43,035 nucleotides of DNA, taken from the IMG/VR virus record IMGVR_UViG_2541047789_000007, positions 1 to 43,035 of that record; one strand, written 5' to 3'. The position numbers were made by a program, and so were the translations under genes. Of the stretch, positions 18,638-36,760 are shown in pieces. The notes beneath the pieces were generated by a model. The model saw nothing but the letters and a program-made list of their open reading frames with translations. It searched no databases and was not told the DNA's origin. Source of the stretch: a virus. Its lineage: Duplodnaviria > Heunggongvirae > Uroviricota > Caudoviricetes. The first letter of the stretch is position 1, and each line of letters opens with the position of its first letter.

Positions 18638-19764
18638 CAATCAGGAAACACCGCCAGGGCGAAACGATCAATATAACTTTCACCTACAAAGGAGTTAAAT
18701 GTCGTGAGCCTCTTTCCAATCTGGAAGTAACACCAAAGAACATTAAATACGCCGAGCGCACACTCGGCGAAATCCATAATAAGATCGAAAGGGGAACATT
18801 CATTTATGCGGAATATTTTCCCCGTTCTGCTCGTTTGAAAATTTTTGGTAATGCGGCTGCAGGCAAAACGGTAAAAATGTACCTGGACGAATACCTTGAA
18901 ATCTGCGAAACGAGAAAACTTTCACCCTCTACGATTGGTGGTTATAAAAAATGCCGTAGTGCGTTAGCCTCACTCCACATTTGCTCTGCAAGTGAATTAA
19001 CACCAGCAATCCTGAAAGCGTGGATTCAAAGCCAGAAAACGACCTTAAAAACAATTCGCAACCAGTTATCTTTCCTGCGGTCAGCACTTGATGAAGCCGT
19101 AACCGATGGAGTACTTCAAATTAACCCCGTATCGTTGGTAACTGCTTCGCGCTACCAAAGTGGTAAGTCAGAAGCAGAAAGCAGCTACGTGGTTGATCCG
19201 CTATCACCAGCAGAAGTTGATGTATTACTAGCAGCAGCCGGAAACAAACAATGGGAGAATCTGTTCCGGTTCGCTATACATACAGGCCTGCGTAGTTCTG
19301 AATTATGTGCCCTTCGATGGCGTGATATCGACTTTGTTGGAAAAACAGCCCATGTTCAGAGCGCTAGTGTTGTCGGAGTTATCAAAGGAACAAAGACAAA
19401 AGCCGGTACCCGTAAAGTTGAACTGACTGAAGAAGCAATGTTGGCGCTGATAAATCAGAAGCCATTTACATTCATGAAGGATGCTACTGTCTTTGAAGAT
19501 CCAAAGACCAATAAGCCATGGGCAAGTGCTGATGCAATCAGAAAAAAAGCATGGGTGCCAACATTGCGAAAAGCAGGTATTCGTTACAGAAATCCATATC
19601 AAACTAGGCATACATTCGCCACCCGCCATATCAGCCGGGGAGCAAACCTGTTTTGGCTTGCAGCTCAAATGGGGCATAAAGGACCGGAGATGCTTTTCAG
19701 GCACTATGGCTCATATCTGAAGGAATATGATGGACAAACAAGCTTGAAGAAGATAACAATATAA
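18598..19764 (+). CDS. Tyrosine integrase (lambda-type)
   Basis: 388 aa; catalytic R...HxxR...Y (TGLRSSEL, RHTFATRHI, LFRHYGSY). Confidence 0.9.
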   Translation: MGQTKLLKLPRGVTIRKHRQGETINITFTYKGVKCREPLSNLEVTPKNIKYAERTLGEIHNKIERGTFIYAEYFPRSARLKIFGNAAAGKTVKMYLDEYLEICETRKLSPSTIGGYKKCRSALASLHICSASELTPAILKAWIQSQKTTLKTIRNQLSFLRSALDEAVTDGVLQINPVSLVTASRYQSGKSEAESSYVVDPLSPAEVDVLLAAAGNKQWENLFRFAIHTGLRSSELCALRWRDIDFVGKTAHVQSASVVGVIKGTKTKAGTRKVELTEEAMLALINQKPFTFMKDATVFEDPKTNKPWASADAIRKKAWVPTLRKAGIRYRNPYQTRHTFATRHISRGANLFWLAAQMGHKGPEMLFRHYGSYLKEYDGQTSLKKITI

Positions 19765-19778
19765 TCCAAGCATGAAAC

Positions 19779-19805
19779 TATTGGCCACAATTTGTGGCCA
19801 TTTTA
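19779..19805 (+). terminator. Hairpin terminator after int
   Basis: TGGCCAC-aattt-GTGGCCA followed by TTTTA. Confidence 0.45.
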
Positions 19806-19822
19806 CGGAGCAAGATACAAAC

Positions 19823-21556
19823 ATGGCAAATCAAATTACCAAACTAAAAAATATAAATGTTGTGAAGTTTCGCGGACTGAAAAATATAAACATCGAGTTT
19901 GGTTCTCGCCTAACTGTTATTTGTGGTAAAAATGGCACATCTAAATCCACAATTCTTGGCATTATCGCCCAAATATTTAGCTTTACAAAGGACTTTACCA
20001 AAAACCCTGAGACTGATTTAACACAATATAAAACATTAACAAATGGCAGCTTCAAGTCAGCTTTCAGCGAACATTTTAGGCTTTCAGAACAATTTGATGT
20101 TCCTGGTTCAATGGACGTCAAAATTAGTGTCTATGATGGTGCATCGAACAAACATCTTGAAAAACTAACATTAGGTTTATACAGCTACAGTGACAGAGAT
20201 AAATCAAGGCCTGTAGTCAGGGGAAATGATTCAATACCGGAAAAAAACCAAAGTAGAAACGTTACTCATCCTGTTATTTTTTTAAGCTTAGCACGACTTC
20301 TTCCTATTACATTAAGGACTAATTACTCAACACGGGATGTTCAGTACATCAATGAAAATTCTGATGAAATCAGAATGATGAGTAACCAACTCTTACTAAA
20401 AAACAATGGAAGCTCAGTAACAGCAACAAAAGGTACTATCGATTCAATGGTTGTCCATGGTGACAATTATGATCACCAATCAGTATCTGTTGGTGAAGAT
20501 AATGTTGGACAATTAATCCAAGCAATTTTTTCATTTAAAAGATTGAAGGAAACTTATTCTGATTATCATGGCGGAATATTGTTAATTGATGAAGCCGATG
20601 CAGGTCTTTTCCCTGCTGCACAGTTAGAGCTAATTAATATTCTAACTAAAGCAGCAAAACAATACGATCTGCAAATAATCATGACCTCGCACTCTCCATT
20701 AATAATAGAGGATATCTATAATCGTTCAAAACAAGATAGTGATAGCTTTAAAACAATATATCTTACAGACACATATGGAGATATTAAAACAAAGAATAAT
20801 CTTTCATGGACAGATATCCACGCTGATTTACATGTTGAAACTGTAAAAATTAATGATGACATTTGTCTTCCAAAAGCAAATGTATATTTTGAAGACAAAG
20901 AAGGTTTCGACTTTTTCAAACAATTGATAACAGATCGAAAAATAAATAAAATATTAAATCCATTAGGGAATATAAATATTAGCTGCTCTGCCATGCTTGA
21001 CTTAATGGCAAGAAAAATACCAGAATTTACAGCTAAAAGCTTGATCGTCTTAGACGGTGATGTTGTTCACGACAACAGTGCTAATGCAAAAAAAGCCAAA
21101 AAAGAAAAAAACTTATGTTTGCTTCCAAGCACCTTACCTCCAGACCAAATGATTTTTGAGTTTTTATATAATTTACCACCTGATGATGCATATTGGGAAA
21201 ATAAAAATAAATTTACAAAATCTGTTTTTATGAAAACAGCTAAAGACATAATTACAACGCTAAAGATTGGTAACGCTCCGATTGATTTAAAAATCCTTAT
21301 AGATAATTATAAAAAAGTTAACAAAAATCATGGCGGGAGAGTGAGAAAACTGTTTAAAGATTTTGCACATACGACTCAATTTCAGGACCAAGTCAAAGGA
21401 CGAGTTAAAGATAACCCATATCGATATTGGGTCGAGAAAAATCCTGTGCAATCGGATAGCTTCAAGAATGAACTAATAAAGAGTCTTAAAGTTATTATGA
21501 TAAGTGGACATGGTGTCGATTCTGCTACCATCTCATCATATCTGTCAGATAACTAA
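19823..21556 (+). CDS. OLD-like ABC-type ATPase with C-terminal TOPRIM-like region (candidate anti-phage nuclease)
   Basis: Walker A GKNGTSKST, Walker B LLIDEADAGL, TSHSP; C-terminal acidic motifs YFEDKEG and IVLDGD; AT-rich; start trimmed to MANQITK. Confidence 0.55.
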   Translation: MANQITKLKNINVVKFRGLKNINIEFGSRLTVICGKNGTSKSTILGIIAQIFSFTKDFTKNPETDLTQYKTLTNGSFKSAFSEHFRLSEQFDVPGSMDVKISVYDGASNKHLEKLTLGLYSYSDRDKSRPVVRGNDSIPEKNQSRNVTHPVIFLSLARLLPITLRTNYSTRDVQYINENSDEIRMMSNQLLLKNNGSSVTATKGTIDSMVVHGDNYDHQSVSVGEDNVGQLIQAIFSFKRLKETYSDYHGGILLIDEADAGLFPAAQLELINILTKAAKQYDLQIIMTSHSPLIIEDIYNRSKQDSDSFKTIYLTDTYGDIKTKNNLSWTDIHADLHVETVKINDDICLPKANVYFEDKEGFDFFKQLITDRKINKILNPLGNINISCSAMLDLMARKIPEFTAKSLIVLDGDVVHDNSANAKKAKKEKNLCLLPSTLPPDQMIFEFLYNLPPDDAYWENKNKFTKSVFMKTAKDIITTLKIGNAPIDLKILIDNYKKVNKNHGGRVRKLFKDFAHTTQFQDQVKGRVKDNPYRYWVEKNPVQSDSFKNELIKSLKVIMISGHGVDSATISSYLSDN

Positions 21557-21567
21557 TTGATTAAAAA

Positions 21568-21601
21568 GGGTTTTATGTGATGGCCATAAAGCCCTTTTTT
21601 T
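21568..21601 (+). terminator. Rho-independent terminator between OLD-like gene and Dam-like gene
   Basis: GGGTTTTATG-tgatggc-CATAAAGCCC followed by T7. Confidence 0.6.
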
Positions 21602-21635
21602 GATATACTTTAGATCTGACATTTAGAGGTATCAT

Positions 21636-22535
21636 ATGCGTTTTAACACCCCACTTCGCTATCCTGGCGGTAAAGGCAAGCTTGCAAATTTCATGCTTCG
21701 GATTATTGAAGAAAATAATCTTTCGCCTATACATTATGCCGAACCATATGCTGGGGGTGCTGGTTTAGCATTGAAACTGTTACATCTAAATGCAGCTGAA
21801 AAAATCATCCTTAATGATATTAATATTTCTGTTTATGCTTTTTGGCACAGTGTATTAAATCATGCAGATCAATTATGTTCTTTAATTGAAAGAACAGAAG
21901 TTACAATGGATGAATGGTTTAGGCAGAAAGATATAATTAATAATCCTAAAGACCATGATCTTTTAACAATTGGTTTCTCAACCTTTTTTCTCAATAGAAC
22001 AAATCGTTCTGGAATATTAAAAGGTGGTGTAATTGGCGGTAAAAATCAAGAAGGGAAATGGAAGCTTGACGCTCGCTATAATAAGAGTGATTTGATTTCT
22101 CGAATCCATAGAATATCAGAAAATCGTCACAGAATAGATTTATATAACATGGATGCAATTGATTTCATAAAAAAAATAGTTATTCAATTGCCACAAAACT
22201 CATTAACATATTTGGATCCACCTTATTACATAAAAGGTAAAGGCTTATATATCAACCATTATGATCATGATGATCATGTTAGGGTTGCAAAAGTCGTACA
22301 GAATAATATTAAAACGCCTTGGATTGTTTCTTACGATAACACTCCTGAGATCCAAGCTATGTATAAGACATCCTCATTAGTATATGGAATAAACTACAGT
22401 GCTCAAGATCGGTACAAAGGATCTGAGGTAATGTTCTTCAGTGAACGATTGAAAATCTTTAAAACAGATGATCCAACTAAGGTAAAAGCGCCTGTATTTA
22501 AAAGAGGATGTGTTGACGACCACATCCAGACATAA
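21636..22535 (+). CDS. Dam-family N6-adenine DNA methyltransferase (D12 class)
   Basis: Motifs RYPGGKGK, AEPYAGGAGL (FxGxG) and LDPPYY; 299 aa; AT-rich. Confidence 0.8.
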   Translation: MRFNTPLRYPGGKGKLANFMLRIIEENNLSPIHYAEPYAGGAGLALKLLHLNAAEKIILNDINISVYAFWHSVLNHADQLCSLIERTEVTMDEWFRQKDIINNPKDHDLLTIGFSTFFLNRTNRSGILKGGVIGGKNQEGKWKLDARYNKSDLISRIHRISENRHRIDLYNMDAIDFIKKIVIQLPQNSLTYLDPPYYIKGKGLYINHYDHDDHVRVAKVVQNNIKTPWIVSYDNTPEIQAMYKTSSLVYGINYSAQDRYKGSEVMFFSERLKIFKTDDPTKVKAPVFKRGCVDDHIQT

Positions 22536-22606
22536 AAGGAGCCGCAAAAGATCCGCAGAATAAAATGGTTAGTATTAATCGTTTTATTTCAGCTAATTAT
22601 AAAAAT

Positions 22607-22640
22607 ACGGACTCGGGTTCAACTCCCGCCAGCTCCACCA
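22607..22640 (+). other. ssrA: ssrA (tmRNA) 3'-end fragment ending CCA: att core shared by the two elements
   Basis: CGGACtCGGGTTCAACTCCCGCCAGCTCCACCA has a tRNA-like T-arm plus acceptor 3' strand and CCA and matches the recalled E. coli ssrA 3' end; upstream sequence is unrelated AT-rich prophage DNA. Confidence 0.6.
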
Positions 22641-22686
22641 AAATTCTCCATCGGTGATTACCAGAGTCATCCGATGAAGTCCTAAG

Positions 22687-22719
22687 AGCCCGCACGGCGC
22701 AAGCCCTGCGGGCTTTTTT
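22687..22719 (+). terminator. Rho-independent terminator (ssrA terminator)
   Basis: GCCCGCA...TGCGGGC hairpin followed by T6. Confidence 0.6.
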
Positions 22720-22773
22720 GTGCCTTGAATTTGTCCCGCGAAGTCTGATGCCAACTAATTAAATCCGAACCTT

Positions 22774-22826
22774 TTAGGCACCTTGTTAGGCACCTCATAA
22801 AGCTTTATTGTTTTTGAGGTGCCTAA
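22774..22826. promoter_or_regulatory. Repeated TTAGGCACC motifs upstream of intA
   Basis: Direct repeats at 22774-22782 and 22786-22794 and an inverted copy GAGGTGCCTAA at 22816-22826, 20 bp before the intA ATG. Confidence 0.4.
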
Positions 22827-22844: not shown

Positions 22845-24086
22845 ATGGCAAGACAAACCAAACCTCTATCCGTTAAAGAAATCGAATCTGCTAAACCCAA
22901 GGAAGCGGACTACGTTCTCTATGATGGCGATGGCCTTGAGCTACTGATCAAATCCAGCGGGAGTAAAATCTGGCAGTTTCGCTACATTCGCCCTGTCACC
23001 AAGAAACGAGCGAAGAAGAGCATAGGCCCCTACCCGTCAGTTACGCTTGCCGATGCTAGAAACTATCGCGCAGAGTCTCGTTCTCTTCTGGCGAAACAAA
23101 TCGACCCTCAGGAACATCAGCAAGAACAACTTCGCAGTTCGCTGGAAGCTAAAACCAATACTTTCCAACTCGTAGCTGAACGATGGTGGAATGTGAAGAA
23201 AGCCAGCGTGACAGAGGACTATGCCGACGATATCTGGCGCTCTCTTGAAAGAGATGTCTTTCCTGCAATTGGCGACATTAGCGTTACAGATATTAAAGCT
23301 CACACACTGGTTCAGGCCGTCCAACCGGTTCAGGCCAGAGGAGCACTGGAAACCGTTCGTCGCCTGTGCCAACGCATTAATGAGGTCATGATCTATGCCC
23401 AAAACACAGGACTGATTGATGCTGTTCCTAGCGTTAATATCGGTAAAGCCTTCGAGAAGCCTCAGAAAAAGAACATGCCCAGCATTCGACCGGATCAGCT
23501 ACCTCAACTGATGCAGACAATGCGAACAGCCAGCATTAGCCTTTCCACACGCTGCCTGTTCATGTGGCAACTTCTTACTATTACCCGCCCTGCCGAAGCG
23601 GCTGAAGCTCGCTGGGAAGAGGTAGACATAGAAGCGCGAGAGTGGAAGATTCCTGCAGCACGCATGAAAATGAACCGCGACCATACTGTTCCATTGTCAG
23701 ATAAAGCAATTGCGATACTGGAGATGATGAAGCCGTTAAGTGAAAATCGAGAATTTATCTTTCCCAGCCGTATCAAGCCAAACCAGCCGATGAACAGTCA
23801 AACCGTTAACGCATCGCTAAAACGCGCAGGTTTTAGTGGAGTGCTCGTTTCGCATGGGCTGAGATCAATTGCCAGTACGGCTCTTAATGAACAAGGCTTT
23901 CCGCCTGATGTTATTGAGGCAGCACTTGCCCATGTGGACAAGAATGAGGTTCGCCGTGCTTATAACCGCAGCGATTACCTAGAACAGCGTCGCCCGATGA
24001 TGCAATGGTGGGCTGACTTCGTTATGGCTGCTGAGCACGGAAGTATGATTGGAGATGGCATTCGAGGTATAAGGCTTGTCGGCTAA
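22845..24086 (+). CDS. intA: P4-type tyrosine integrase IntA
   Basis: 413 aa starting MARQTKPL; immediately downstream of ssrA 3' end as in CP4-57. Confidence 0.9.
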   Translation: MARQTKPLSVKEIESAKPKEADYVLYDGDGLELLIKSSGSKIWQFRYIRPVTKKRAKKSIGPYPSVTLADARNYRAESRSLLAKQIDPQEHQQEQLRSSLEAKTNTFQLVAERWWNVKKASVTEDYADDIWRSLERDVFPAIGDISVTDIKAHTLVQAVQPVQARGALETVRRLCQRINEVMIYAQNTGLIDAVPSVNIGKAFEKPQKKNMPSIRPDQLPQLMQTMRTASISLSTRCLFMWQLLTITRPAEAAEARWEEVDIEAREWKIPAARMKMNRDHTVPLSDKAIAILEMMKPLSENREFIFPSRIKPNQPMNSQTVNASLKRAGFSGVLVSHGLRSIASTALNEQGFPPDVIEAALAHVDKNEVRRAYNRSDYLEQRRPMMQWWADFVMAAEHGSMIGDGIRGIRLVG

Positions 24087-24126: not shown

Positions 24127-24721
24127 ATCCAAATTCACATAAAAATTACTACAACTGACCATTTCTTTTTTTTCTGCTTACAGTGTCTTCGAAAGCCTGC
24201 TTCACACTTTCAACATTTGTAGACCACGATTTTAAAATAGTATCGGCTAAGGCTTCCTGACTGGTTGTTGGCATTCGATATTTTTTATCGTGCTTATTAA
24301 TATTCAATTTTGACTCCTCTATAAATAGCCACAAAGGTTCAATGAGAACATTCACCGCTGCAGCTTTACTTCTCCATCCTTCTTCAGGAGACAAATCATT
24401 TATAAGTTCCACCAGTTTTTCCTGAATAGGTCGATACATTTCAGATTTTTTTATCCCACCTTTCCTTCCTGATCTATTCCTGATAGATAAAAGTTTAGTT
24501 TGCTTATCTACTGAGATCTTATACCAAACCATCCCCATGCTTTTATCAAATAACTCAGATGCTTTTTTAAATGCTTCAAATGCAACATCCTCGTTGTCTG
24601 ATATAACTAATTCACCCCATTTATAGCACTTCAGTGCATACTTAAGGTGAAATTTAAAAAGCTCATCCATAGAGATATATTCAGGGATAATGACAGCAAC
24701 ATTATCGGTAATGACTCCAAC

Positions 24722-25225
24722 TTATTGATAGTGTTTTATGTTCAGATAATGCCCGATGACTTTGTCATGCAGCTCCACCGATTTTGAAAACGACAGCGAC
24801 TTCCGTCCCAGCCGTGCCAGGTGCTGCCTCAGATTCAGGTTATGCCGCTCAATTCGCTGCGTATATCGCTTGCTGATTACGTGCAGCTTTCCCTTCAGGC
24901 GGGATTCATACAGCGGCCAGCCATCCGTCATCCATATCACCACGTCAAAGGGTGACAGCAGGCTCATAAGACGCCCCAGCGTCGCCATAGTGCGTTCACC
25001 GAATACGTGCGCAACAACCGTCTTCCGGAGACTGTCATACGCGTAAAACAGCCAGCGCTGGCGCGATTTAGCCCCGACATAGCCCCACTGTTCGTCCATT
25101 TCCGCGCAGACGATGACGTCACTGCCCGGCTGTATGCGCGAGGTTACCGACTGCGGCCTGAGTTTTTTAAGTGACGTAAAATCGTGTTGAGGCCAACGCC
25201 CATAATGCGGGCAGTTGCCCGGCAT
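24722..25225 (-). CDS. insB: IS1 transposase InsB
   Basis: 167-aa ORF starting [16 protein letters not shown]. Confidence 0.9.
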
Positions 25226-25419
25226 CCAACGCCATTCATGGCCATATCAATGATTTTCTGGTGCGTACCGGGTTGAGAAGCGGTGTAAGTGAACTGCAGT
25301 TGCCATGTTTTACGGCAGTGAGAGCAGAGATAGCGCTGATGTCCGGCGGTGCTTTTGCCGTTACGCACCACCCCGTCAGTAGCTGAACAGGAGGGACAGC
25401 TGATAGAAACAGAAGCCAC
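25144..25419 (-). CDS. insA: IS1 InsA
   Basis: 91-aa ORF starting [32 protein letters not shown]. Confidence 0.9.
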
Positions 25420-25932
25420 TGGAGCACCTCAAAAACACCATCATACACTAAATCAGTAAGTTGGCAGCATCACCAACATTATCTCTCAGAAGTTCTGCCT
25501 CCAATGTACTCCAATAACGTTCAATAAGCTTAGCTAACTCGATGCTTTTCTCATTTGATGGAAAGTCCTTATGAGAGTCAGTGTACCTATGCTCCTTCAA
25601 ATAAGATGATGAATACAATAATATTCCGGGACCAAACTTCTTGGAGTTCCAGACCCGCTCTTTCATCATAGTCAACTCAGCCTGCATATCTGTATGCTTT
25701 TCATCCAGAACTTGGGCGTACATGCTCCATTCACAGTCCTTCATCTCACTGGAGAGAGCACTGCATTTTCGACTAATTTCTTCACTAAAAATTTTAAGAG
25801 AAAACATTTATCTTCACAATATCAACAAGTTAAACCCGTTAAAAATAAACCTTTGCTAGCCGTATTTTTTCGAAGAATCCTTGCAGCTATTCTTTGCTGG
25901 AACCAAACTGAGCTAACAAGAGGCAAACTAGT

Positions 25933-26145
25933 ATGAACACTTCATCAGCAGTCAGGATACTCCGCTTACCTGCTGTTATCCATAAAACAGGTATCTCGCG
26001 AGCCACAATTTATGACTGGTTGAACCCGAGGTCGCCGCGATATGATCCAACTTTTCCGAAGAAAAGAAAGCTTGGAACACAATCAGTTGGATGGCTTGAA
26101 TCAGAAATCGATGAATGGTTGTTACATCGTAGTCTTATTAATTAA
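25933..26145 (+). CDS. alpA: AlpA-family transcriptional regulator
   Basis: 70 aa; LRLPAV..KTGISRATIYDWLNP signature. Confidence 0.85.
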   Translation: MNTSSAVRILRLPAVIHKTGISRATIYDWLNPRSPRYDPTFPKKRKLGTQSVGWLESEIDEWLLHRSLIN

Positions 26146-29059: not shown

Positions 29060-32000
29060 ATGAGTGTGTTGAGTTGGGCAATAGACCTATGCGGGAAGAT
29101 GGAAGCGTGGCTGGTTAAGCGCCAAGCAAAAGATCAACTACAGAGCGCAGAGCAGGGGTTGAGTCTGATGGAAGAAGAATTAGGTGATCGCTATGACACC
29201 TTAGCGCCGAAAACCATCAATGATGCCAGTATGCGAGAGTATTTCATTGCCCTGAAATACGCCTTGTCTCAGAAAGACGTAAGAAACATTGCCATTACAG
29301 GGAGCTATGGCGCAGGGAAAAGTACGGTTATTTCATCATTTATGAAATATCACTGCGATGATAAATACATCAATGTATCTCTTGCGGGATTCGATATGAC
29401 GGAAAATGAAACAACCGTCAGCCCAACTCACCAAGAGGTTGAACTCAGTATCCTGCAACAAATTCTTTATAAAGAGAATAGAGAGAAGCTTCCCGACTCA
29501 AGGATAGACAGAATAATCGACAGGGGCCCTCACTATGTCAGAGGAACTTATCGAGCCTTACTTAAAGTCATTACCCCCATCGCGGTAGCCGCATTTATTA
29601 TCTATTTCAAAACAATTGCAGAGTTTCTAAGCCTTCCGCCATCCTGGATCGAGGTATTTAATGCACACTACATCATAAAAGGCTTTATATTAGTTTCGCT
29701 GGCTTTTACCGCGCTGTACTTTATAACTGCCAGCGCATCTCGAATCGGTATTTTTGATAAGAAACTCAAGCTGAGCAAGATCGCGCTTTTAAGCGGGGAT
29801 GTTGAGGCAAGCGAGCAAGAGACACCATCCTTATTGAATAATTGCCTTGACGAGATCGTGTATTTTTTCACCAAGCTGAAATATAAGGTAGTCATCTTTG
29901 AAGATCTTGACAGGTTAGGGACGCCTGAGATTTTCGTTAAGTTGCGTGAAATTAACAAAATAGTTAACAATAATATTGTCGATGGCAGTCCGGTCAGGTT
30001 TGTTTATGCGGTAAGAGATGACCTATTCCTGGGCGCTGATGCCAGAACTAAATTCTTTGATTTCATTCTCCCTGTCATTCCATTTATGGACAGCAGAAAC
30101 GCGTTTACCTTATTAAAAAGGAAAATGTTACTCAATACGCATAACGATACATATTTGAAAGACATTTCTGTACATATAAATGATATGCGCAGCCTGCAGA
30201 ATTTGGTCAATGAGTACCATGTATTCAGTAATATCGTTGATAACGGCAACGACAAAATCAAACTGTTATCGCTGGTATTTTATAAAAATATCTATGCATT
30301 AGACTACTACCTTACCGATAAGAAAACAGGGGTTTTATATTCATTTATTCGCGACTATCGCACCCGAAAACTTCACCATAATCATTTTGACTCTCTGGAA
30401 ACAAAACTGGATCTTTTACAGGCCGAAATAGAACATCTTAATTATGAGCCTATGTATGACCATAGGGGAATTAGAGAGGAAATAGTTTGTCGATATATTC
30501 CTAAGATACTCTGGGATGGCGTTCATTTTGGTACGGGAAATGGATACAGTAATTTTTATCCTTTAGGAACTTTGGCTTTAATTGATGATGAAAATAGTTT
30601 TTTGGAGTTTTTATCGCAAAAGGAAAACTTATATATAGGCTACTTTGTTAGTCATCAGGGGCATTCACTTTCACTTTTTGATAGAGCATTAAGAGAACAA
30701 CTAAAAGAAGAATACCTGAAACGAAAAACGAAAATGGGTAAAGATAAAAACTCGGCTTTTAGTGAACTGCAAATAAAAATAAAGAAAATTAAAGAGTCAA
30801 TAAAATTAAAAAACACCCTTTCGCTGCGAGAACTTACGCTAATAATCGGGCGTGAGAAATTTGCAGAGATTGCGCAGGGGTATCTTGAGGCGATGGAGGG
30901 GCATGACTTCGTTTCTAAGCAGCAGCTCCATGCTTTGTGTGCTGATATGCGCAATGGCGGTTTAGACGCCTTATATCTGCTGCTGTCCGATGGTCTGGTG
31001 ATGCAAGACTTCATGGCCTACCGCTCTATTTTCCATGAAGGATCGATGACCGTAAATGATAACGACTTTTTGAAAGCCGTCGGTCAGGATCTGAGCTACG
31101 CAACCTCAAACGGTGAATATTTTATCGATGACGAGAACAGAGTCATCAGCGAATTGGTTGAACATAACCGTATTTATGCCGATGGCGCGCTTCATCATCA
31201 ACTGGTGACTCATTTGATTGATAACGCGGACGAACATCTGGCGGGCATGTTCGCTTCGCTATTCAGTCAGTCTGATGAACACATCCTTGCTGTTTTCTCT
31301 GAGCTTTATACACGATTTGGCAAACCCGAAACCTTCGATAAGTTAATCGTTACCGCGCTGCAAAAAAATGGTTATCTTGACAGAATGGTTGCCGTTCTCG
31401 CGGGACAGCTGGGTGAAAAATTCACCAACGATATTGCTATCAGCGTGATAGCCTGCGTATCACCTGCACATGCGCAAGATAAACTGCAATACCGCCAGCT
31501 TATTCATTCGCTGGGGTGCCGTATCATCTCTCAGCTCACCGAAGAAAATCAGGAAGCGTTTATGCGTCATGTACAACAGGCGGATGCACGCTATGACGAG
31601 CTGTTCGAACCAATAACGCCAACGGAGCGGTATTGCCTACAGTTTACTGCACAAAACAGCCTTTATCAGTTAACTCGACACAATGTTGGCATTGCCGTTT
31701 CATGTCTTATTGACAACATAACGCCTGAAGAGGCGGAAAGGAAACCCTGGACACTCGCCTATGAACATGAACTCAGCACGGTTTCTGACTACTTCAGTCA
31801 AAACATTGATATATTCGTCAGGGATGTGTTTATCTACTCCGCTGAGGATGGCGACTGTATCCGCTACGTTCTGACCCGTACCTCTCTAAGCGACGATTCC
31901 AAAGGCGATGTCGTCAGAAACATGACCTTCTCGTTTTCCGACCTGTCCGGGATATTGGCTAAAGCAGTATTTACCGAAGACCAGCTAACGATTTCCTATC

Positions 32001-32899
32001 ACGACCTGTTTTACCGATATGACCGCGTCGCACCGGGATGGGGGGCGCTGATAGACTATATCTGTGAAGATTGCGACATGGAGATACTGACGGCTTATGT
32101 GACAAAGCATGCGCCTGTATTGGGGCAATCATCCCCGGAAGTTTATGATGGCGACCGCTATGACCTGCTGTATATGAAAATTATCTGCAATGATGACCTA
32201 GAAGAACAGGTTTATCAGAGCCTAGTTGCACCGATTGAGATTAACATGCGGGAAATTGATGAGCGGCTTAGCGCGCGTCATTTCTGCACCCTGGTTGCCA
32301 TGCAGAAGCTGCCTCTCGACGCGGATGTGTATGAAAAAATTGCGGCTCAATATGCGGTTCAAGATGAAAATATAAGTGATGCCTTCGTCTATTGGTTCAG
32401 CCAGTACAAAAGTGAGTTTTTGACGCAGCCCGAATTCTATCTAAGAAAAGAAAAAGACGCGCGCTTCTTTAATGTCATGCTCACAAAAATCATAACCTAC
32501 GCGCACTTTACCGTGCAAGAGAGAGCGGACCTGGTGTCGCTATTCATTGATTATTTCATTGCGTCTGATATCGCTGACCTTAATTACCCTCATGATGTCC
32601 TGCTGCAGGTGTTTAACAGTACCAATAATGAAGAATTCAAGGTCATGCTGTTTACGCGATTTATTGTGACAGGCCTGAATAAACATCAACTGGCCGGGCT
32701 ATGTCATCAACTGGGCGAAGACGAATTGAGTAATGTATTCATCAATCGAACCCAGGCAACAATTGCTGTTATAAACAGGGAACGCGTGATATCAATTCTT
32801 GAACATCTGCAAGCAGTACGCATCATAAGAGGTTTTCAGGAGCGTGAAAGTGGGAAAATCTCCGTCTTTATCGAACCCGATCTGGAGGATAAAGATTAG
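29060..32899 (+). CDS. Giant KAP/YobI-type P-loop NTPase with transmembrane insertion (1279 aa)
   Basis: Walker A ITGSYGAGKST, then two hydrophobic helices, then Walker B KVVIFEDLDRLG; about 900-aa C-terminal region without recognisable motifs. Confidence 0.6.
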   Translation: MSVLSWAIDLCGKMEAWLVKRQAKDQLQSAEQGLSLMEEELGDRYDTLAPKTINDASMREYFIALKYALSQKDVRNIAITGSYGAGKSTVISSFMKYHCDDKYINVSLAGFDMTENETTVSPTHQEVELSILQQILYKENREKLPDSRIDRIIDRGPHYVRGTYRALLKVITPIAVAAFIIYFKTIAEFLSLPPSWIEVFNAHYIIKGFILVSLAFTALYFITASASRIGIFDKKLKLSKIALLSGDVEASEQETPSLLNNCLDEIVYFFTKLKYKVVIFEDLDRLGTPEIFVKLREINKIVNNNIVDGSPVRFVYAVRDDLFLGADARTKFFDFILPVIPFMDSRNAFTLLKRKMLLNTHNDTYLKDISVHINDMRSLQNLVNEYHVFSNIVDNGNDKIKLLSLVFYKNIYALDYYLTDKKTGVLYSFIRDYRTRKLHHNHFDSLETKLDLLQAEIEHLNYEPMYDHRGIREEIVCRYIPKILWDGVHFGTGNGYSNFYPLGTLALIDDENSFLEFLSQKENLYIGYFVSHQGHSLSLFDRALREQLKEEYLKRKTKMGKDKNSAFSELQIKIKKIKESIKLKNTLSLRELTLIIGREKFAEIAQGYLEAMEGHDFVSKQQLHALCADMRNGGLDALYLLLSDGLVMQDFMAYRSIFHEGSMTVNDNDFLKAVGQDLSYATSNGEYFIDDENRVISELVEHNRIYADGALHHQLVTHLIDNADEHLAGMFASLFSQSDEHILAVFSELYTRFGKPETFDKLIVTALQKNGYLDRMVAVLAGQLGEKFTNDIAISVIACVSPAHAQDKLQYRQLIHSLGCRIISQLTEENQEAFMRHVQQADARYDELFEPITPTERYCLQFTAQNSLYQLTRHNVGIAVSCLIDNITPEEAERKPWTLAYEHELSTVSDYFSQNIDIFVRDVFIYSAEDGDCIRYVLTRTSLSDDSKGDVVRNMTFSFSDLSGILAKAVFTEDQLTISYHDLFYRYDRVAPGWGALIDYICEDCDMEILTAYVTKHAPVLGQSSPEVYDGDRYDLLYMKIICNDDLEEQVYQSLVAPIEINMREIDERLSARHFCTLVAMQKLPLDADVYEKIAAQYAVQDENISDAFVYWFSQYKSEFLTQPEFYLRKEKDARFFNVMLTKIITYAHFTVQERADLVSLFIDYFIASDIADLNYPHDVLLQVFNSTNNEEFKVMLFTRFIVTGLNKHQLAGLCHQLGEDELSNVFINRTQATIAVINRERVISILEHLQAVRIIRGFQERESGKISVFIEPDLEDKD

Positions 32900-33369: not shown

Positions 33370-34470
33370 TTATTTGATGTTGGACTCAAAAATCTCAACG
33401 AGTTCTTTGACTTTTTTCATGCAATCAATATTAACACACCTATATTTATCATTATATTTTATAAGTGACACTAAATATGAGCGATAACCTTTTAATTTAT
33501 TCTGTAATTGATCATCAGCATACTTAGAGTAAAAATCAAATTTATTCCCATACCTTAGGGTAAACTTCCTATGGTTTAAATAGAATACGCTCTCCATTAT
33601 ATACATTGGGGATTTTTGTTTTTTGAGCAATGCGGAAACTTTTTTCAACGGTTTAAGTTTTTTATCAGATAGCCTGATGTTACCAACAGGCTTCTCTTTG
33701 TACACATGAAAAAAGTCTTTCTTTCTTTTCCTGTTCTGTACTACATAACCGTTAAGCGATATAGTGTTCTCAGTCGCTCTCCTTTTCTTTTTTTTCAACT
33801 TGAGAGAAAGTATAGAGACGAAGATAGAAATATCCTTTTCAAATTGCTCAGAATGCAGGTACTTACTGTTATCACAAGAAAAAAGCATATCATCTGCATA
33901 ACGTGAGTAGATAATCCCTTTATCTTCACACAATTTTTGAATAAGAATATCTACTCTTCTGAATATTATGTTTGATATTACAGGGGAGGATGAAAATCCA
34001 ATAGGTAACACTTCTTTCCCACGAAAGTCTTTGTCAATATAAGTGTCACTAACCTTGTGAGTAACAGAAATATATGCAATATCTAGAGCTGAGTATTTAT
34101 TTCCATTCTTTTCATTGTTGAAGTGCTGAGCGAGTAGGCTTTTTACTTCATGCGTAGGTATTGAATGGAAGAATTTTTTGATATCCAATCGTAGGAAGTA
34201 ATATCCTTGGATATGGGGCCTTAGAAAGTCGTAATAAGATTTACCTTGAACAAAGCCGCATGCGGATGAGTTAATGGGACTTTTATCTAGAACAAACTTA
34301 GTTATTCTATCATTTATACGCTTGTGTTCAGAGTCTCTAGAAATTTCAAAAAAGTTGTCGCAACCAACTTTAAACTCTCTGACGGCAGGAGTGAAATCAT
34401 TTAGAAGATCTTCATTGCCTTTAAGAATCGCTTTCTTAAAAAAGTCATCGCTAATATTATTTTTTATCAT
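33370..34470 (-). CDS. Reverse transcriptase (retron-like / defence-associated RT)
   Basis: RT motifs: motif A LRLDIKKFFHSI, motif B LPIGFSSSPVISNIIF, motif C YADD; 366 aa; AT-rich. Confidence 0.8.
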   Translation of the reverse strand: MIKNNISDDFFKKAILKGNEDLLNDFTPAVREFKVGCDNFFEISRDSEHKRINDRITKFVLDKSPINSSACGFVQGKSYYDFLRPHIQGYYFLRLDIKKFFHSIPTHEVKSLLAQHFNNEKNGNKYSALDIAYISVTHKVSDTYIDKDFRGKEVLPIGFSSSPVISNIIFRRVDILIQKLCEDKGIIYSRYADDMLFSCDNSKYLHSEQFEKDISIFVSILSLKLKKKKRRATENTISLNGYVVQNRKRKKDFFHVYKEKPVGNIRLSDKKLKPLKKVSALLKKQKSPMYIMESVFYLNHRKFTLRYGNKFDFYSKYADDQLQNKLKGYRSYLVSLIKYNDKYRCVNIDCMKKVKELVEIFESNIK

Positions 34471-34473
34471 AGA

Positions 34474-34673
34474 GCTTCAACCCGATACAAAAGAACACCA
34501 TTACACCGTAGGTGTGTACTTCGACGCATACTAATCAGAGTGACTAGTTTAGCAGTCATTAGGACTATGCCCAAAGCTAAAAGAAGCTGGACTCCCTCAA
34601 GCAAAGAGCGGGAGAGGCAAGCTCTCAGATACTTGTCGAAACTCATATCTCCCCTCTACTATCGGGTTGAAGC
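34474..34673 (-). ncRNA. Candidate retron msr-msd non-coding RNA bracketed by 14-bp inverted repeats (a1/a2-like)
   Basis: Perfect inverted repeat GCTTCAACCCGATA (34474-34487) / TATCGGGTTGAAGC (34660-34673) enclosing about 170 nt with internal hairpins; lies between OLD gene stop and RT start. Confidence 0.4.
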
Positions 34674-36760
34674 ATACGAATGATATCATAAAACTCGGGG
34701 AAATAAACTTTAAATACTGTCCCAAATGGTTGATTTTTAGCTAAAGACTCTTTTTCAACGTATCCGACGGCATAATTTAGGAAGCTTGTAGTCCATCCAT
34801 CGGTTTTATCAAGGTATTTGTTGTGTACAGTGTTCTCTTCTAATAATTTCATTAGCATTTTTGCATGCTTGGAAGTGTATCGCAACTTGCCGCTTACCTT
34901 TCTCTTATTATTTAAAGTTTGTTTGTATGTTTCAACATTGAAGTGGCTATAGTCAGTTAATGCCATTGACTTTCCATTAAAAATGACTCTAATGTAATCA
35001 ATGAGCATATCCTCTGTAACATACTTGCTTCGTTTTATACGCTTCAATGTAGAATCAAAATTAGAATTATGTTCACTGTCTAACCATCCATATACAATTT
35101 TTGAGCTATGTTTCTGGATTAAACAACCTTCTAATGTTGTTCTATTTAGATAAATATTCTGATCAAGCAACCTGCTTTTAACAGCAGTAAATACCGACTC
35201 AAAGTCAGACTCATCTAGAAAAGTTTGAGTTGTATTATTTACTTTTACTTCTTTATTTATAACGGATAACAACGTCTCAATATTTTCTCGTTTTGTCTTG
35301 TACTTCTTGCTAAAACCCAATTTGTATTTATTAAGCTCTGATTTTAAAGTATCTGGTTTAAAGTTAAAATAGCTACCGTTTTTTTCTAGTTTTATAGATA
35401 AACTACGAGGCTCACCTTTAATTGATATTGCTTTGTCTGCATCGAATAAGAATAAGTATGGTATAGTAGAGTTTGAGTATGATGGATTAACTCGCTCACC
35501 AACGACATTGCTACTACATTTATAAACATCTATATTTCTTAAATGAGGGAAATGTTCAGTCATCTTCATGTTTCCAAAAGCTTCCAACTCACTTTCACCC
35601 TCTACAAATAGGATAAAGTCGCTAAAAAACAATCTTGCTTCATTGTCACTAAAAATATTTATAAAGCTCTCGTTGTCATAAGTGGAATTTAATATGCTAA
35701 TCGTAGTTCTAGCATCAACTTTCTTCTGAAAACAATAAACACGTTGTTTTTGCCTGAACTTTTTAATTATCTCTTTTACTATATTCGGCGAATGAGTTGT
35801 TATAAATACTTTAGGCCTAGTAACTCGATCATCTTTTTTTTCATTATAATTGTAACTAGTAAATATATCTTGGACTAGAACCTCGTTCATTTTAGGGTGT
35901 AGACCTAGCTCTGGTTCATCAATAAAAACAAATGGTGTTATATATTCTCTTCTTGAAATTGTAATTAGTATCCTAAGAAAGGTTTTTATGAAATGAAATG
36001 AATTTGTTCCATCTGAGTGAAACTTTAAATCATTTTCGTCTATCTCAAACCGATAACCTTTTAATCCAGCCTTAATATAGCTCAACACCTTTTCTTTCTG
36101 AGAACTTGGCTTCGTAGATATCGTTCTATTTAAGTCTGAAATATAATTCCTATAAGAATTATCACCACTCGAATTAATTGAATTATCAAAAAAATCAATT
36201 ACAGATTGGTCATCAATTTTAGACAGATTGAAAGACTTCACTCTTGATATAAGATCCCACAAACTGTCCCATTCATGTAAATCCATATGTCTAGGTTCAA
36301 CATGGAAAAATGGAAATAGATAAAGAATAAGGTTTAAAGTTTGTTTGTCTTTAGTTGACCACTTAACTTTACCATCGCTGTATATGTTCAGTGTCAAAGT
36401 ATAAGTGGTGTAATCATTATCGTAGCGCGTTAATGCAAATATGCTTCGTTTATGGAGAGGAACCAATTTTCGGATGATAAAATCAAAATACTTATTTTTA
36501 GGTTGATTCCTGGCTATCCTATAAATTCTGGTCATATCATAAGTTACTGATATAGAACCTTTATACGAATAATTAGAGTTTAGCTTTGGCGGTAACTCTT
36601 CTTTGCCTTCTAGTTTATTGTAGAAGAATTTAAGAACTTTAAGTAAGTTAGACTTTCCAACGTTATTGCGACCGACAATGCAGTTTAAGTCGTTTAAGTT
36701 ATCAACATTTAGCTCATCGAATGATAACAAGTTGGTGATTTTTATAGCCTGTACAGTCAT
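34643..36760 (-). CDS. OLD-family ATPase/TOPRIM nuclease (705 aa)
   Basis: Walker A GRNNVGKSN, Walker B FVFIDEPELGLHP, TTHSP, TOPRIM LFVEGESELEAF and LFLFDADKA; AT-rich. Confidence 0.8.
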   Translation of the reverse strand: MTVQAIKITNLLSFDELNVDNLNDLNCIVGRNNVGKSNLLKVLKFFYNKLEGKEELPPKLNSNYSYKGSISVTYDMTRIYRIARNQPKNKYFDFIIRKLVPLHKRSIFALTRYDNDYTTYTLTLNIYSDGKVKWSTKDKQTLNLILYLFPFFHVEPRHMDLHEWDSLWDLISRVKSFNLSKIDDQSVIDFFDNSINSSGDNSYRNYISDLNRTISTKPSSQKEKVLSYIKAGLKGYRFEIDENDLKFHSDGTNSFHFIKTFLRILITISRREYITPFVFIDEPELGLHPKMNEVLVQDIFTSYNYNEKKDDRVTRPKVFITTHSPNIVKEIIKKFRQKQRVYCFQKKVDARTTISILNSTYDNESFINIFSDNEARLFFSDFILFVEGESELEAFGNMKMTEHFPHLRNIDVYKCSSNVVGERVNPSYSNSTIPYLFLFDADKAISIKGEPRSLSIKLEKNGSYFNFKPDTLKSELNKYKLGFSKKYKTKRENIETLLSVINKEVKVNNTTQTFLDESDFESVFTAVKSRLLDQNIYLNRTTLEGCLIQKHSSKIVYGWLDSEHNSNFDSTLKRIKRSKYVTEDMLIDYIRVIFNGKSMALTDYSHFNVETYKQTLNNKRKVSGKLRYTSKHAKMLMKLLEENTVHNKYLDKTDGWTTSFLNYAVGYVEKESLAKNQPFGTVFKVYFPEFYDIIRMLQPDSRGEI

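What the first reader, a model, noticed from the sequence alone, without database searches (positions are those of the whole stretch)
22774..22826. Triplicated TTAGGCACC motif just upstream of intA
Two direct copies and one inverted copy, with a perfect 11-bp inverted repeat TTAGGCACCTC / GAGGTGCCTAA, lie within 70 bp of the intA start. Candidate integrase arm-type or AlpA operator sites controlling excision.
Basis: seen in the sequence. Interest (0 to 1): 0.35.

Follow-up and report, generated by a model that had tools for sequence, protein, structure and literature searches.

The report
Integrase arm-type sites upstream of intA
The three TTAGGCACC copies are real and are most likely the docking sites ("arm-type" sites) for the N-terminal domain of the island's own integrase IntA, laid out as in satellite phage P4; this is an ordinary, known kind of element, and AlpA is unlikely to be what reads it.

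Summary
TTAGGCACC occurs exactly three times in 43 kb, at 22774-82 (+), 22786-94 (+) and 22818-26 (-), between a partial ssrA 3' end (attL core, 22608-22640) and intA (start 22845).

Comparison across about 130 related loci shows only two motif classes, TTAGGCACC and TTAGGCCCA (the E. coli K-12 CP4-57 type). All three sites always switch together. Two more direct copies, 12 bp apart, lie about 60 bp from the core at the far end of the island, and they match that island's own class. That gives five sites around the core in the excised circle.

All 13 IntA alignment columns that separate the two classes fall in residues 4-74, inside the Pfam arm-DNA-binding domain. AlpA variants do not track the class. 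The number, orientation and 12-bp spacing of the sites match the annotated "attP arm sequence repeats" of phage P4.

A weak sigma-70-like promoter sits between the sites (-35 TTGTTA 22783-88, -10 TATTGT 22806-11; its TA...T is invariant and TTG nearly so). This suggests IntA autorepression as in P4 and KplE1, which is inferred, not shown.

Verdict: these are the P' arm-type sites of a P4-like integrase, a new member of a known kind. The AlpA-operator reading is not supported. Interest is low to moderate.

The parts
22608..22640 (+). Partial 3' end of ssrA (33 nt, one mismatch). This is the attL core region of the CP4-57-like island and at the same time the right junction of the lambdoid prophage to its left.
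   Evidence: It is the same sequence as the ssrA 3' end in K-12 and in E2348/69.
22684..22723 (+). Island-borne ssrA terminator: a GC-rich hairpin followed by a T-run, lying between the core and the arm sites.
   Evidence: Inverted repeat I2, terminator scan, the terminator part of the Rfam IsrM alignment, and near-invariance across loci.
22753..22771 (+). Conserved block AACTAATTAAATCCGAACC immediately upstream of site P'1. Its role is unknown. It is a candidate site for an accessory factor (AlpA or IHF). P4 has AAATCCGGA at the equivalent place.
   Evidence: Low column entropy across 78 distinct upstream sequences; P4 sequence. The function is a guess.
22774..22782 (+). Arm-type site P'1 (TTAGGCACC).
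22783..22788 (+). Putative -35 hexamer (TTGTTA) of the intA promoter. It spans the gap between P'1 and P'2 and the first bases of P'2.
   Evidence: Read from the sequence. TTG is nearly invariant across loci. The promoter is below the threshold of the scan tool.
22786..22794 (+). Arm-type site P'2 (TTAGGCACC), starting 12 bp after P'1.
22806..22811 (+). Putative -10 hexamer (TATTGT), 17 bp after the -35. The T, A and final T are invariant across loci.
   Evidence: Not detected by the scan, which needs 9 of 12 matches; this candidate has 8 of 12.
22818..22826 (-). Arm-type site P'3, the inverted copy (GGTGCCTAA on the + strand). It lies at the predicted transcription start.
22845..24086 (+). 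intA, a P4/CP4-57-type tyrosine integrase of 413 aa. Residues 8-95 (22866-23129) form the arm-DNA-binding domain, and this domain holds all 13 class-specific residues.
   Evidence: Pfam PF13356, PF22022 and PF00589; PDB 3JU0 and 3JTZ; segregation analysis.
25933..26145 (+). alpA, encoding an AlpA/Vis-family excisionase-regulator of 70 aa. It is the island's recombination directionality factor, and its type does not track the motif class.
   Evidence: Pfam PF05930.

Best explanation
The three TTAGGCACC copies are the P'1, P'2 and P'3 arm-type binding sites of IntA. IntA is the P4-like tyrosine integrase of the CP4-57-like island that sits at the ssrA attachment site.

IntA is heterobivalent. 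Its C-terminal domains bind and cut the core inside the ssrA 3' end (22608-22640). Its N-terminal arm-binding domain (residues ~8-95) docks on the 9-bp arm sites.

In the excised circle the core is flanked by two direct copies about 60 bp away on one side (the P arm, found at the island's far end) and by two direct copies plus one inverted copy about 135-185 bp away on the int side (the finding). Int molecules bridging arm and core sites fold the DNA into the recombination complex that integrates or, with AlpA, excises the island.

The weak intA promoter lies between and over P'2 and P'3. Occupied sites should therefore also repress intA, giving autoregulation as reported for P4 Int and KplE1 IntS.

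Shown here: the presence, layout, conservation and two-class co-variation of the sites with the Int arm-binding domain. Inferred: the binding itself, the role in recombination, the promoter and the autorepression.
For: 1. There are five sites on both arms.
- E. coli A0 34/86 carries this same island: its last 2 kb and its attL region match the window at 100% and 99.7%, and the island is about 0.78 kb shorter, which fits the window's 768-bp IS1.
- Its far end reads TTAGGCACCacaTTAGGCACC, about 60 bp before the attR core.
- The same P arm precedes a second island in Citrobacter amalonaticus (L063), and a TTAGGCCCAacgATAGGCCCA P arm occurs in L116.
- K-12 CP4-57 has TTAGGACCAacaATGGGACCA at the same place.

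2. The sites change in concert.
- In K-12 the three int-side positions read TTAGGCCCA, aTAGGCCCA and inverted TGGGCCTAA.
- Among 81 distinct sequences from more than 25 genera, every locus has all three sites of one class. The columns TTAGGC.C. are essentially invariant and only positions 7 and 9 switch.
- Spacer sequences diverge in the Providencia and Morganella subgroups while the sites stay exact, apart from a T/A difference at the first base of P'2.

3. The class tracks the Int arm-binding domain.
- In a 69-sequence IntA alignment, 13 columns separate the classes perfectly. All lie at residues 4-74, and none lies in the other ~340 residues.
- The Pfam Arm-DNA-bind_3 domain covers residues 8-95.
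- Window IntA and a TTAGGCCCA-class IntA are 69% identical over residues 9-80 but 89-92% identical elsewhere.
- Concordance is 54 + 26 distinct loci against 1 discordant.

4. The layout equals P4. The P4 GenBank record annotates 'attP arm sequence repeat' as two adjacent 12-bp direct repeats about 55-60 bp from the core, two adjacent direct repeats on the int side, and one inverted repeat at the int start.

5. Solved structures of homologous arm-binding domains exist: 3JU0 (E = 4e-16) and 3JTZ, deposited as a 'CP4-like integrase'.

6. Precedent for autoregulation. P4 Int and KplE1 IntS repress their own promoters through arm sites that overlap them (PMC2951348). The candidate -35 and -10 hexamers here keep TTG (nearly invariant) and TA...T (invariant) across all classes.
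Against: - No binding, footprint or excision data exist for these sites, and none could be produced here.
- The int-side sites and the first 225 nt of intA are physically adjacent. In the circular form they are also close to the P arm, so part of the co-variation could reflect linkage of one recombination block rather than co-adaptation.
- One mosaic locus (L139) combines TTAGGCACC sites with a TTAGGCCCA-type arm-binding domain. This means either that the element is defective or that specificity is less strict than inferred.
- The promoter is weak (8 of 12 consensus matches) and was not called by the scan. No transcription start data were available.
- P'2 and P'3 form a palindrome that extends 3-7 bp beyond the 9-mer in both classes. 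The simple site model does not explain this.
Confidence: 0.8

Rival explanations
1. The repeats are operators for AlpA, the island's excisionase and transcriptional activator of intA. AlpA would bind them to switch on intA or to bend the arm for excision.
For: - alpA is present in the island (25933-26145, Pfam PF05930).
- AlpA is annotated in K-12 as a transcriptional activator and is required for excision of a related island (PMC5148205).
- The repeats overlap the likely intA promoter.
Against: - AlpA type does not follow the motif class. Near-identical AlpA proteins occur with TTAGGCACC (L044, L023) and with TTAGGCCCA (L072, L084, L045).
- At least five AlpA types, down to 52-66% identity to the window's AlpA, share the TTAGGCACC class.
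- The helix-turn-helix segment (RxTIYDW.NP) is nearly the same in both classes.
- Two more copies lie at the other end of the island, far from any promoter.
- In P4 the equivalent repeats are annotated as attP arm repeats.
Confidence: 0.06
2. The inverted pair (22786-22801 and 22811-22826) acts as an RNA or DNA hairpin, for example an insulator or attenuator for transcripts reading through from ssrA or a cruciform, rather than as protein sites.
For: - The predicted RNA hairpin has about -24 kcal/mol (centroid); the minimum-free-energy fold of the 86-nt region scores z = -2.4 against shuffles.
- The palindrome extends beyond the 9-mer, and the flanking bases change on both arms in different classes (TCA/TGA, ACG/CGT and ACA/TGT).
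Against: - No T-run follows the stem on either strand, and the terminator scan lists nothing there.
- P'1 and both far-end copies have no inverted partner yet co-vary identically.
- If transcription starts after the -10 at 22806-11, the left arm is not in the intA mRNA.
- P4 has no extended palindrome.
Confidence: 0.05
3. The repeats bind another protein, such as a host nucleoid protein or an island repressor, or they are a non-functional remnant of a duplication.
For: No direct binding data are available. The conserved block 22753-22771 shows that other, unassigned elements exist in this arm.
Against: - The 9-mers are exactly conserved across more than 25 genera while the spacers drift.
- The change at five sites is concerted.
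- The class segregates exclusively with the Int arm-binding domain.
These patterns are hard to explain without Int.
Confidence: 0.05

Closest known systems
Phage P4 attP arm repeats (Int binding sites) with the int promoter
   Same: The integrase family is the same: a P4-type integrase with an Arm-DNA-bind_3 domain. The layout is also the same: two adjacent direct repeats 12 bp apart about 55-60 bp from the core on the far arm, two adjacent direct repeats 12 bp apart on the int-proximal arm, and one inverted copy just before or at the int start. A Vis/AlpA-family directionality factor is encoded nearby. P4 Int is reported to repress its own promoter by binding at comparable positions (PMC2951348).
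   Different: The motif differs: TTGGGGGCAT in P4 against TTAGGCACC here. The core and target differ: a leucine tRNA gene for P4 (from my own knowledge) against ssrA here. The int-side sites lie ~135 bp from the core here against ~105-115 bp in P4. P4 annotates a sixth copy inside int, and no counterpart was found here with up to 2 mismatches. Binding is experimentally supported for P4 and not for this island.
E. coli K-12 cryptic prophage CP4-57 (intA, alpA, ssrA)
   Same: This is a homologous island at the same site. IntA is ~83-87% identical in that class, alpA is present, the ssrA 3' end and terminator are island-borne, and the three-site layout and promoter hexamer positions are the same.
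   Different: The K-12 sites read TTAGGCCCA, and its far-end copies are degenerate (TTAGGACCA and ATGGGACCA). The arm-binding domain differs at 13 class-specific positions. The cargo genes differ. I found no paper in the searchable library that describes these sites for CP4-57. The original 1994 papers were not available.
Lambda Int arm-type sites (P1, P2, P'1-P'3) and KplE1 IntS/TorI attL
   Same: All use a heterobivalent integrase with five arm sites split 2 + 3 around the core. In KplE1 the integrase promoter lies inside attL and is repressed by IntS through the P' sites (PMC2951348).
   Different: The arm-binding domain families differ, as do site sequences, spacings and orientations. Lambda int is not adjacent to the att site in the same way.
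Arm-binding domains of the HPI and HAI7 island integrases (PDB 3JTZ/3RMP, 3JU0)
   Same: They are sequence homologues of IntA residues 10-106 (E = 4e-16 and 3e-11). They establish that this N-terminal domain is an arm-site binding module in P4-like island integrases.
   Different: They come from other islands with other target genes and other arm motifs. As far as I recall these entries hold the domains without DNA, so the class-specific residues cannot be placed on a protein-DNA interface from them.

Membership tests
Arm-type sites of a P4-like heterobivalent tyrosine integrase | The adjacent integrase carries an N-terminal arm-DNA-binding domain. | tested here: met
   Pfam PF13356 Arm-DNA-bind_3 covers residues 8-95 (E = 6e-21), together with PF22022 and PF00589. 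PDB 3JU0 and 3JTZ are homologues.
Arm-type sites of a P4-like heterobivalent tyrosine integrase | A repeated motif, different from the core sequence, is present on both arms flanking the core. | tested here: met
   The int-side arm has three copies in the window. The far arm has two copies in the same island in E. coli A0 34/86, in L063 and in L116. The far end of the island lies outside the window.
Arm-type sites of a P4-like heterobivalent tyrosine integrase | The number, orientation and spacing of the sites match the family prototype P4. | tested here: met
   Both have 2 direct + core + 2 direct + 1 inverted, a 12-bp period and ~60 bp from the far-arm pair to the core.
Arm-type sites of a P4-like heterobivalent tyrosine integrase | Site sequence co-varies with the integrase arm-binding domain and not with other proteins. 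| tested here: met
   All 13 class-segregating IntA columns lie at residues 4-74. Eighty concordant distinct loci stand against one discordant. AlpA does not track the class. Caveat: the sites and the domain's coding region are physically linked.
Arm-type sites of a P4-like heterobivalent tyrosine integrase | The Int N-terminal domain binds the sites directly, and the sites are required for recombination. | not testable with these tools
   This needs EMSA or footprinting and excision or integration assays with site mutants.
AlpA/Vis (recombination directionality factor) operator | Site sequence follows the identity of the AlpA protein. | tested here: not met
   AlpA of L044 (TTAGGCACC class) is near-identical to AlpA of L072 and L084 (TTAGGCCCA class), and likewise L023 to L045. 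Diverse AlpA types occur within one class.
AlpA/Vis (recombination directionality factor) operator | AlpA binds the sites directly. | not testable with these tools
   No binding site for E. coli AlpA was found in the accessible literature.
Intrinsic terminator or regulatory hairpin | A GC-rich stem is followed by a T-run, or the pairing is kept independently of the primary sequence. | tested here: not met
   The stem exists, but there is no T-run and the terminator scan gives no hit. The unpaired copies P'1 and the two far-arm copies co-vary in the same way.
Sigma-70 promoter overlapped by arm sites (Int autorepression, as in P4 and KplE1) | Recognisable -35 and -10 hexamers with 16-18 bp spacing lie between or over the sites and are conserved. 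| tested here: inconclusive
   TTGTTA, a 17-bp spacer and TATTGT give 8 of 12 consensus matches, below the scan threshold. TTG is nearly invariant and TA...T is invariant across 78 distinct sequences. No transcription start data were available.

The most novel reading that the evidence does not exclude
The family has split into at least two mutually exclusive arm-site codes, TTAGGCACC and TTAGGCCCA, each matched by a cassette-like variant of the IntA arm-binding domain. Thirteen fixed residue differences accompany two base changes per site. A third P-arm motif, GGTATAC, is seen at other junctions of the same ssrA hotspot; its integrase was not examined.

This divergence could let several islands that share the same ssrA core sit in tandem yet assemble only their own recombination complexes, so that each excises and autoregulates independently. 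The C. amalonaticus junction (L063) and L116, where arms of the two classes abut one core, would be such cases.
Probability: 0.3. Interest if true: 0.45.

Novelty: new member of a known kind. Interest (0 to 1): 0.3.

Why it matters
The result assigns a concrete role to a conspicuous repeat next to a widespread island integrase. It also gives a ready-made natural specificity swap for working out how P4-type (DUF4102) arm-binding domains read DNA: two bases per site against 13 residues in a 70-residue stretch.

There is a practical use as well. The five-site signature marks the true ends of ssrA islands. It lets tandem arrays at this hotspot be split into their individual elements, and the motif class shows which integrase belongs to which end.

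It does not change the general picture of site-specific recombination.

Tried and rejected
- ARAGORN and Rfam at gathering threshold found no RNA gene in the window. Only a sub-threshold tmRNA match (24.7 bits against a gathering score of 47) and a match to the terminator part of IsrM appeared, which fits a 33-nt ssrA remnant plus its terminator.
- The other end of the island is not in the window. There is no second core copy and no motif pair.
- The E2348/69 EspC island has the same three sites, but its integrase is broken by an IS21-family element and no far-end sites are recognisable, so it could not be used.
- The promoter scan returned nothing at its threshold.
- A single-sequence AlphaFold model of IntA residues 1-110 had mean pLDDT 68.6. 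It gave only secondary structure: strands 23-26, 31-36 and 43-48, and a helix 68-86. A Foldseek search with it gave no match at E <= 0.001, so the hits (top ones ribosomal proteins) are meaningless. I therefore make no claim about which class-specific residues face the DNA.
- Searching viral contigs for the motif pair also returned unrelated arrays. One is a TTAGGCA-rich region next to a primase-helicase-like ORF (my reading of its sequence; L108, L130, L136). Another is a 12-bp tandem array next to an ORF that looks like a large-DNA-virus capsid protein, also my reading (L131). Neither lies beside an integrase.
- A literature search for the motif strings found nothing relevant in the listed results.
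- The 1994 CP4-57/AlpA papers and the 2009 structure paper were not held.
- The idea that different classes are required for tandem residence was weakened. C. freundii M-21 carries two TTAGGCACC-class islands in one ssrA array, the second lying directly after a lambdoid prophage junction.

Full report
**Observation**

The motif TTAGGCACC occurs exactly three times in the window, at 22774-22782 (+), 22786-22794 (+) and 22818-22826 (-). No other exact copy exists on either strand.
- The two direct copies start 12 bp apart.
- The second direct copy and the inverted copy form a perfect 12-bp palindrome, which is 94% complementary over 16 bp with a 9-nt loop.
- About 0.29 exact copies are expected in the whole window, and the chance of two more copies within +/-60 bp of a first is about 3e-7.
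- intA starts at 22845.

**Context**
- The window contains only the last 33 nt of ssrA, at 22608-22640, and no tmRNA gene.
- This fragment is followed by the GC-rich terminator hairpin and T-run that normally end ssrA, at 22684-22723.
- To the left is a lambdoid prophage with its own integrase at 18598-19764, which has an Arm-DNA-bind_2 type domain.
- To the right is a CP4-57-like island: intA, an IS1 copy, alpA and defence genes.
- From 22608 onward the sequence is 99.7% identical to the region downstream of ssrA in E. coli E2348/69, A0 34/86 and others.
- Excision of K-12 CP4-57 leaves ssrA lacking T357 (PMC10107115), which places the crossover inside the ssrA 3' end. Everything from there rightwards, including the terminator and the repeats, is therefore island DNA: the int-proximal arm of the attachment site.

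**Comparison with K-12**

In CP4-57 the three equivalent positions read TTAGGCCCA, aTAGGCCCA and inverted TGGGCCTAA. The spacing and the distance to the intA ATG are the same. At the far end of CP4-57, about 60 bp before the attR core remnant (annotated psaA), lies TTAGGACCAacaATGGGACCA. These are two direct copies of a related motif, again 12 bp apart.

**The far end of this island**

The window stops about 1.5 kb short of the island's end.
- E. coli A0 34/86 carries the same island. Its last 2 kb is 100% identical to the window's right end, its attL region is 99.7% identical, and the island is about 0.78 kb shorter there, which fits the window's 768-bp IS1.
- Its far end reads TTAGGCACCacaTTAGGCACC, followed about 60 bp later by the attR core.
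- In the excised circle the core is therefore flanked by 2 + 3 copies of one motif.

Independent confirmations come from tandem arrays.
- In Citrobacter amalonaticus P55, a TTAGGCACC-class intA (L005) lies about 23 kb upstream of a TTAGGCCCA-class intA (L063) on the same contig.
- At the junction between them, a TTAGGCACC pair is followed about 60 bp later by a core copy, and then by the TTAGGCCCA sites of the next island.
- L116 shows the reverse order, with a perfect TTAGGCCCAacgATAGGCCCA far arm.

**Conservation and concerted change**

I compared 80 intA loci from one genome per species, covering more than 25 genera of Enterobacterales, and 50 further int-proximal copies from viral contigs.
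- Only two classes occur.
- In all 81 distinct sequences the three sites belong to the same class.
- Column entropies show TTAGGC.C. to be essentially invariant. Only positions 7 and 9 toggle (A/C and C/A), and the mirrored positions toggle in the inverted copy.
- In the Providencia and Morganella subgroups of both classes the spacers and flanks have diverged, but the 9-mers are exact apart from a T/A difference at the first base of P'2.

**Which protein reads the sites**

IntA has an N-terminal Arm-DNA-bind_3 domain at residues 8-95, a central domain and the catalytic domain. Its N-terminus matches the solved arm-binding domains of the HAI7 and HPI island integrases, 3JU0 and 3JTZ.

In a 69-sequence alignment, 13 columns separate the two site classes without overlap: residues 4, 9, 10, 11, 14, 24, 32, 48, 54, 56, 58, 60 and 74.
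- All 13 lie in the N-terminal 74 residues, and none lies in the remaining ~340.
- Window IntA and a TTAGGCCCA-class IntA are 69% identical over residues 9-80 but 89-92% identical elsewhere.

AlpA behaves differently.
- It falls into several types that are shuffled relative to the site class.
- Near-identical AlpA proteins accompany either class (L044 against L072 and L084; L023 against L045).
- AlpA types 52-66% identical to the window's AlpA share the TTAGGCACC class.
- The helix-turn-helix segment is nearly the same throughout.

The motif therefore tracks the arm-binding domain of the integrase and not AlpA.

**Comparison with P4**

The P4 GenBank record annotates 'attP arm sequence repeats'. 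Read in the int orientation they are:
- two adjacent 12-bp direct repeats about 55-60 bp from the core (GTGGGGGCACAA and AAGGGGGCATAT);
- the core;
- two adjacent direct repeats on the int side (ATTGGGGGCATA and ATTGGGGGCATC);
- one inverted repeat at the int start codon.

This is the layout found here, with a different motif. More distant relatives also carry repeated motifs upstream of int. Vibrio phage P2 has a direct pair 12 bp apart, and phage phi467 has two direct copies 15 bp apart plus an inverted copy.

**Promoter**

A candidate promoter lies between and over the sites: TTGTTA (22783-88), a 17-bp spacer and TATTGT (22806-11).
- This is 8 of 12 consensus matches, below the scan threshold.
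- TTG is nearly invariant and the T, A and final T of the -10 are invariant across all loci. The -10 variants are TATTGT, TATAGT, TATGGT, TATTAT and TAACAT.
- The predicted start falls in the inverted site.
- P4 Int and KplE1 IntS repress their own promoters through such overlapping arm sites (PMC2951348).
- I infer the same for IntA. The weakness of the promoter fits the annotated role of AlpA as an activator. None of this is shown.

**Caveats**
- The int-side sites adjoin the coding region of the arm-binding domain, and in the circle they also lie near the far arm. Linkage therefore contributes to the correlation. What linkage cannot explain is the identical two-base change at five separate sites while the DNA between them stays shared.
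- One mosaic (L139) has TTAGGCACC sites, a TTAGGCCCA-type arm-binding domain (96% identity to that class over residues 9-80) and a TTAGGCACC-like remainder. It may be a dead recombinant, or specificity may be looser than inferred.
- The palindrome between the second and third sites extends beyond the 9-mer in both classes, with matching changes on both arms. It would fold as RNA at about -24 kcal/mol. It has no T-run, and the unpaired copies co-vary in the same way, so a hairpin function is at most secondary.
- The single-sequence structure model was too weak for fold comparison.

**Verdict**

The repeat is real and functional-looking, and it is best explained as the P' arm-type sites of a P4-like integrase. 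It probably doubles as the operator for integrase autorepression.
The AlpA alternative is not.
- This is a new, well-delimited member of a known kind.
- The two-class co-variation with the arm-binding domain is a modest extra result.
- Same-class islands also coexist in one ssrA array, so a role for class divergence in tandem coexistence remains speculative.

Noticed in passing
window 1-22607, junction at 22608-22640: The window shows a tandem array at the ssrA hotspot. A lambdoid prophage (integrase 18598-19764, with an Arm-DNA-bind_2 domain) ends at a 33-nt ssrA remnant that also serves as attL of the CP4-57-like island. The ssrA gene body is not in the window. The same arrangement occurs in E. 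coli WP5-W18-ESBL-11 and in many viral contigs.
   Followed up: partly
window 22539-22557: Direct repeats GAGCCGCA and GATCCGCA lie 11 bp apart, about 50-70 bp left of the core. Other lambdoid prophages at the same junction carry analogous pairs with different motifs (GAGCCGTA, GATACGC, ATGCACG, GTATACGCG). These are probably the arm-type sites of the lambdoid integrases.
   Followed up: partly
L042, L087, L133 (junctions upstream of intA): A third far-arm motif, TTGGTATACgcTTAGGTATACC, forms a pair about 12 bp apart and ~58 bp from the core, preceding TTAGGCACC-class islands. This suggests a third island or integrase specificity class at ssrA.
   Followed up: no
L139 (IMG/VR contig), int start at 8354: A mosaic integrase: TTAGGCACC sites and the first 8 codons of that class, then residues 9-80 of the TTAGGCCCA class, then a TTAGGCACC-like remainder. 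The arm-binding domain appears to have been exchanged like a cassette, leaving sites and domain mismatched.
   Followed up: partly
window 24707-25474: A complete 768-bp IS1 (insA and insB on the - strand, terminal inverted repeats found) is inserted between intA and alpA. The window's island is about 0.78 kb longer than the otherwise matching island of E. coli A0 34/86, which fits this insertion.
   Followed up: partly
window 33370-36760 (-): A retron of type I-B: reverse transcriptase 33370-34470 (PADLOC RT_I-B, E = 5e-93) and ATPase-Toprim effector 34643-36760 (E = 2e-225). The effector is annotated 'retron Eco8 family effector' in A0 34/86. The msr/msd RNA was not looked for.
   Followed up: partly
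window 29060-32899 (+): A 1279-aa protein matches the PADLOC Tmn defence protein (E = 2e-175). Together with the retron, this makes the island a defence island.
   Followed up: no
window 19772-22535 (+): Between the lambdoid integrase and the att junction lie an AAA ATPase (19772-21556) and a DNA adenine methylase (21636-22535). The methylase matches PADLOC PD-Lambda-5_B (E = 5e-124). They are a likely two-gene defence cargo of the prophage.
   Followed up: no
window 22753-22771; P4 (L141) about 3967-3985: The conserved block AACTAATTAAATCCGAACC lies just upstream of the first site. P4 has GAAATCCGGA at the equivalent position. It could be a site for AlpA/Vis or IHF.
   Followed up: no
window 12490-12564: Four overlapping copies of a 15-bp period repeat (CAGATTTTGACGGGT-like) lie inside the lambdoid prophage's replication and regulation region, within the ORF 11921-12862. 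They look like iterons.
   Followed up: no
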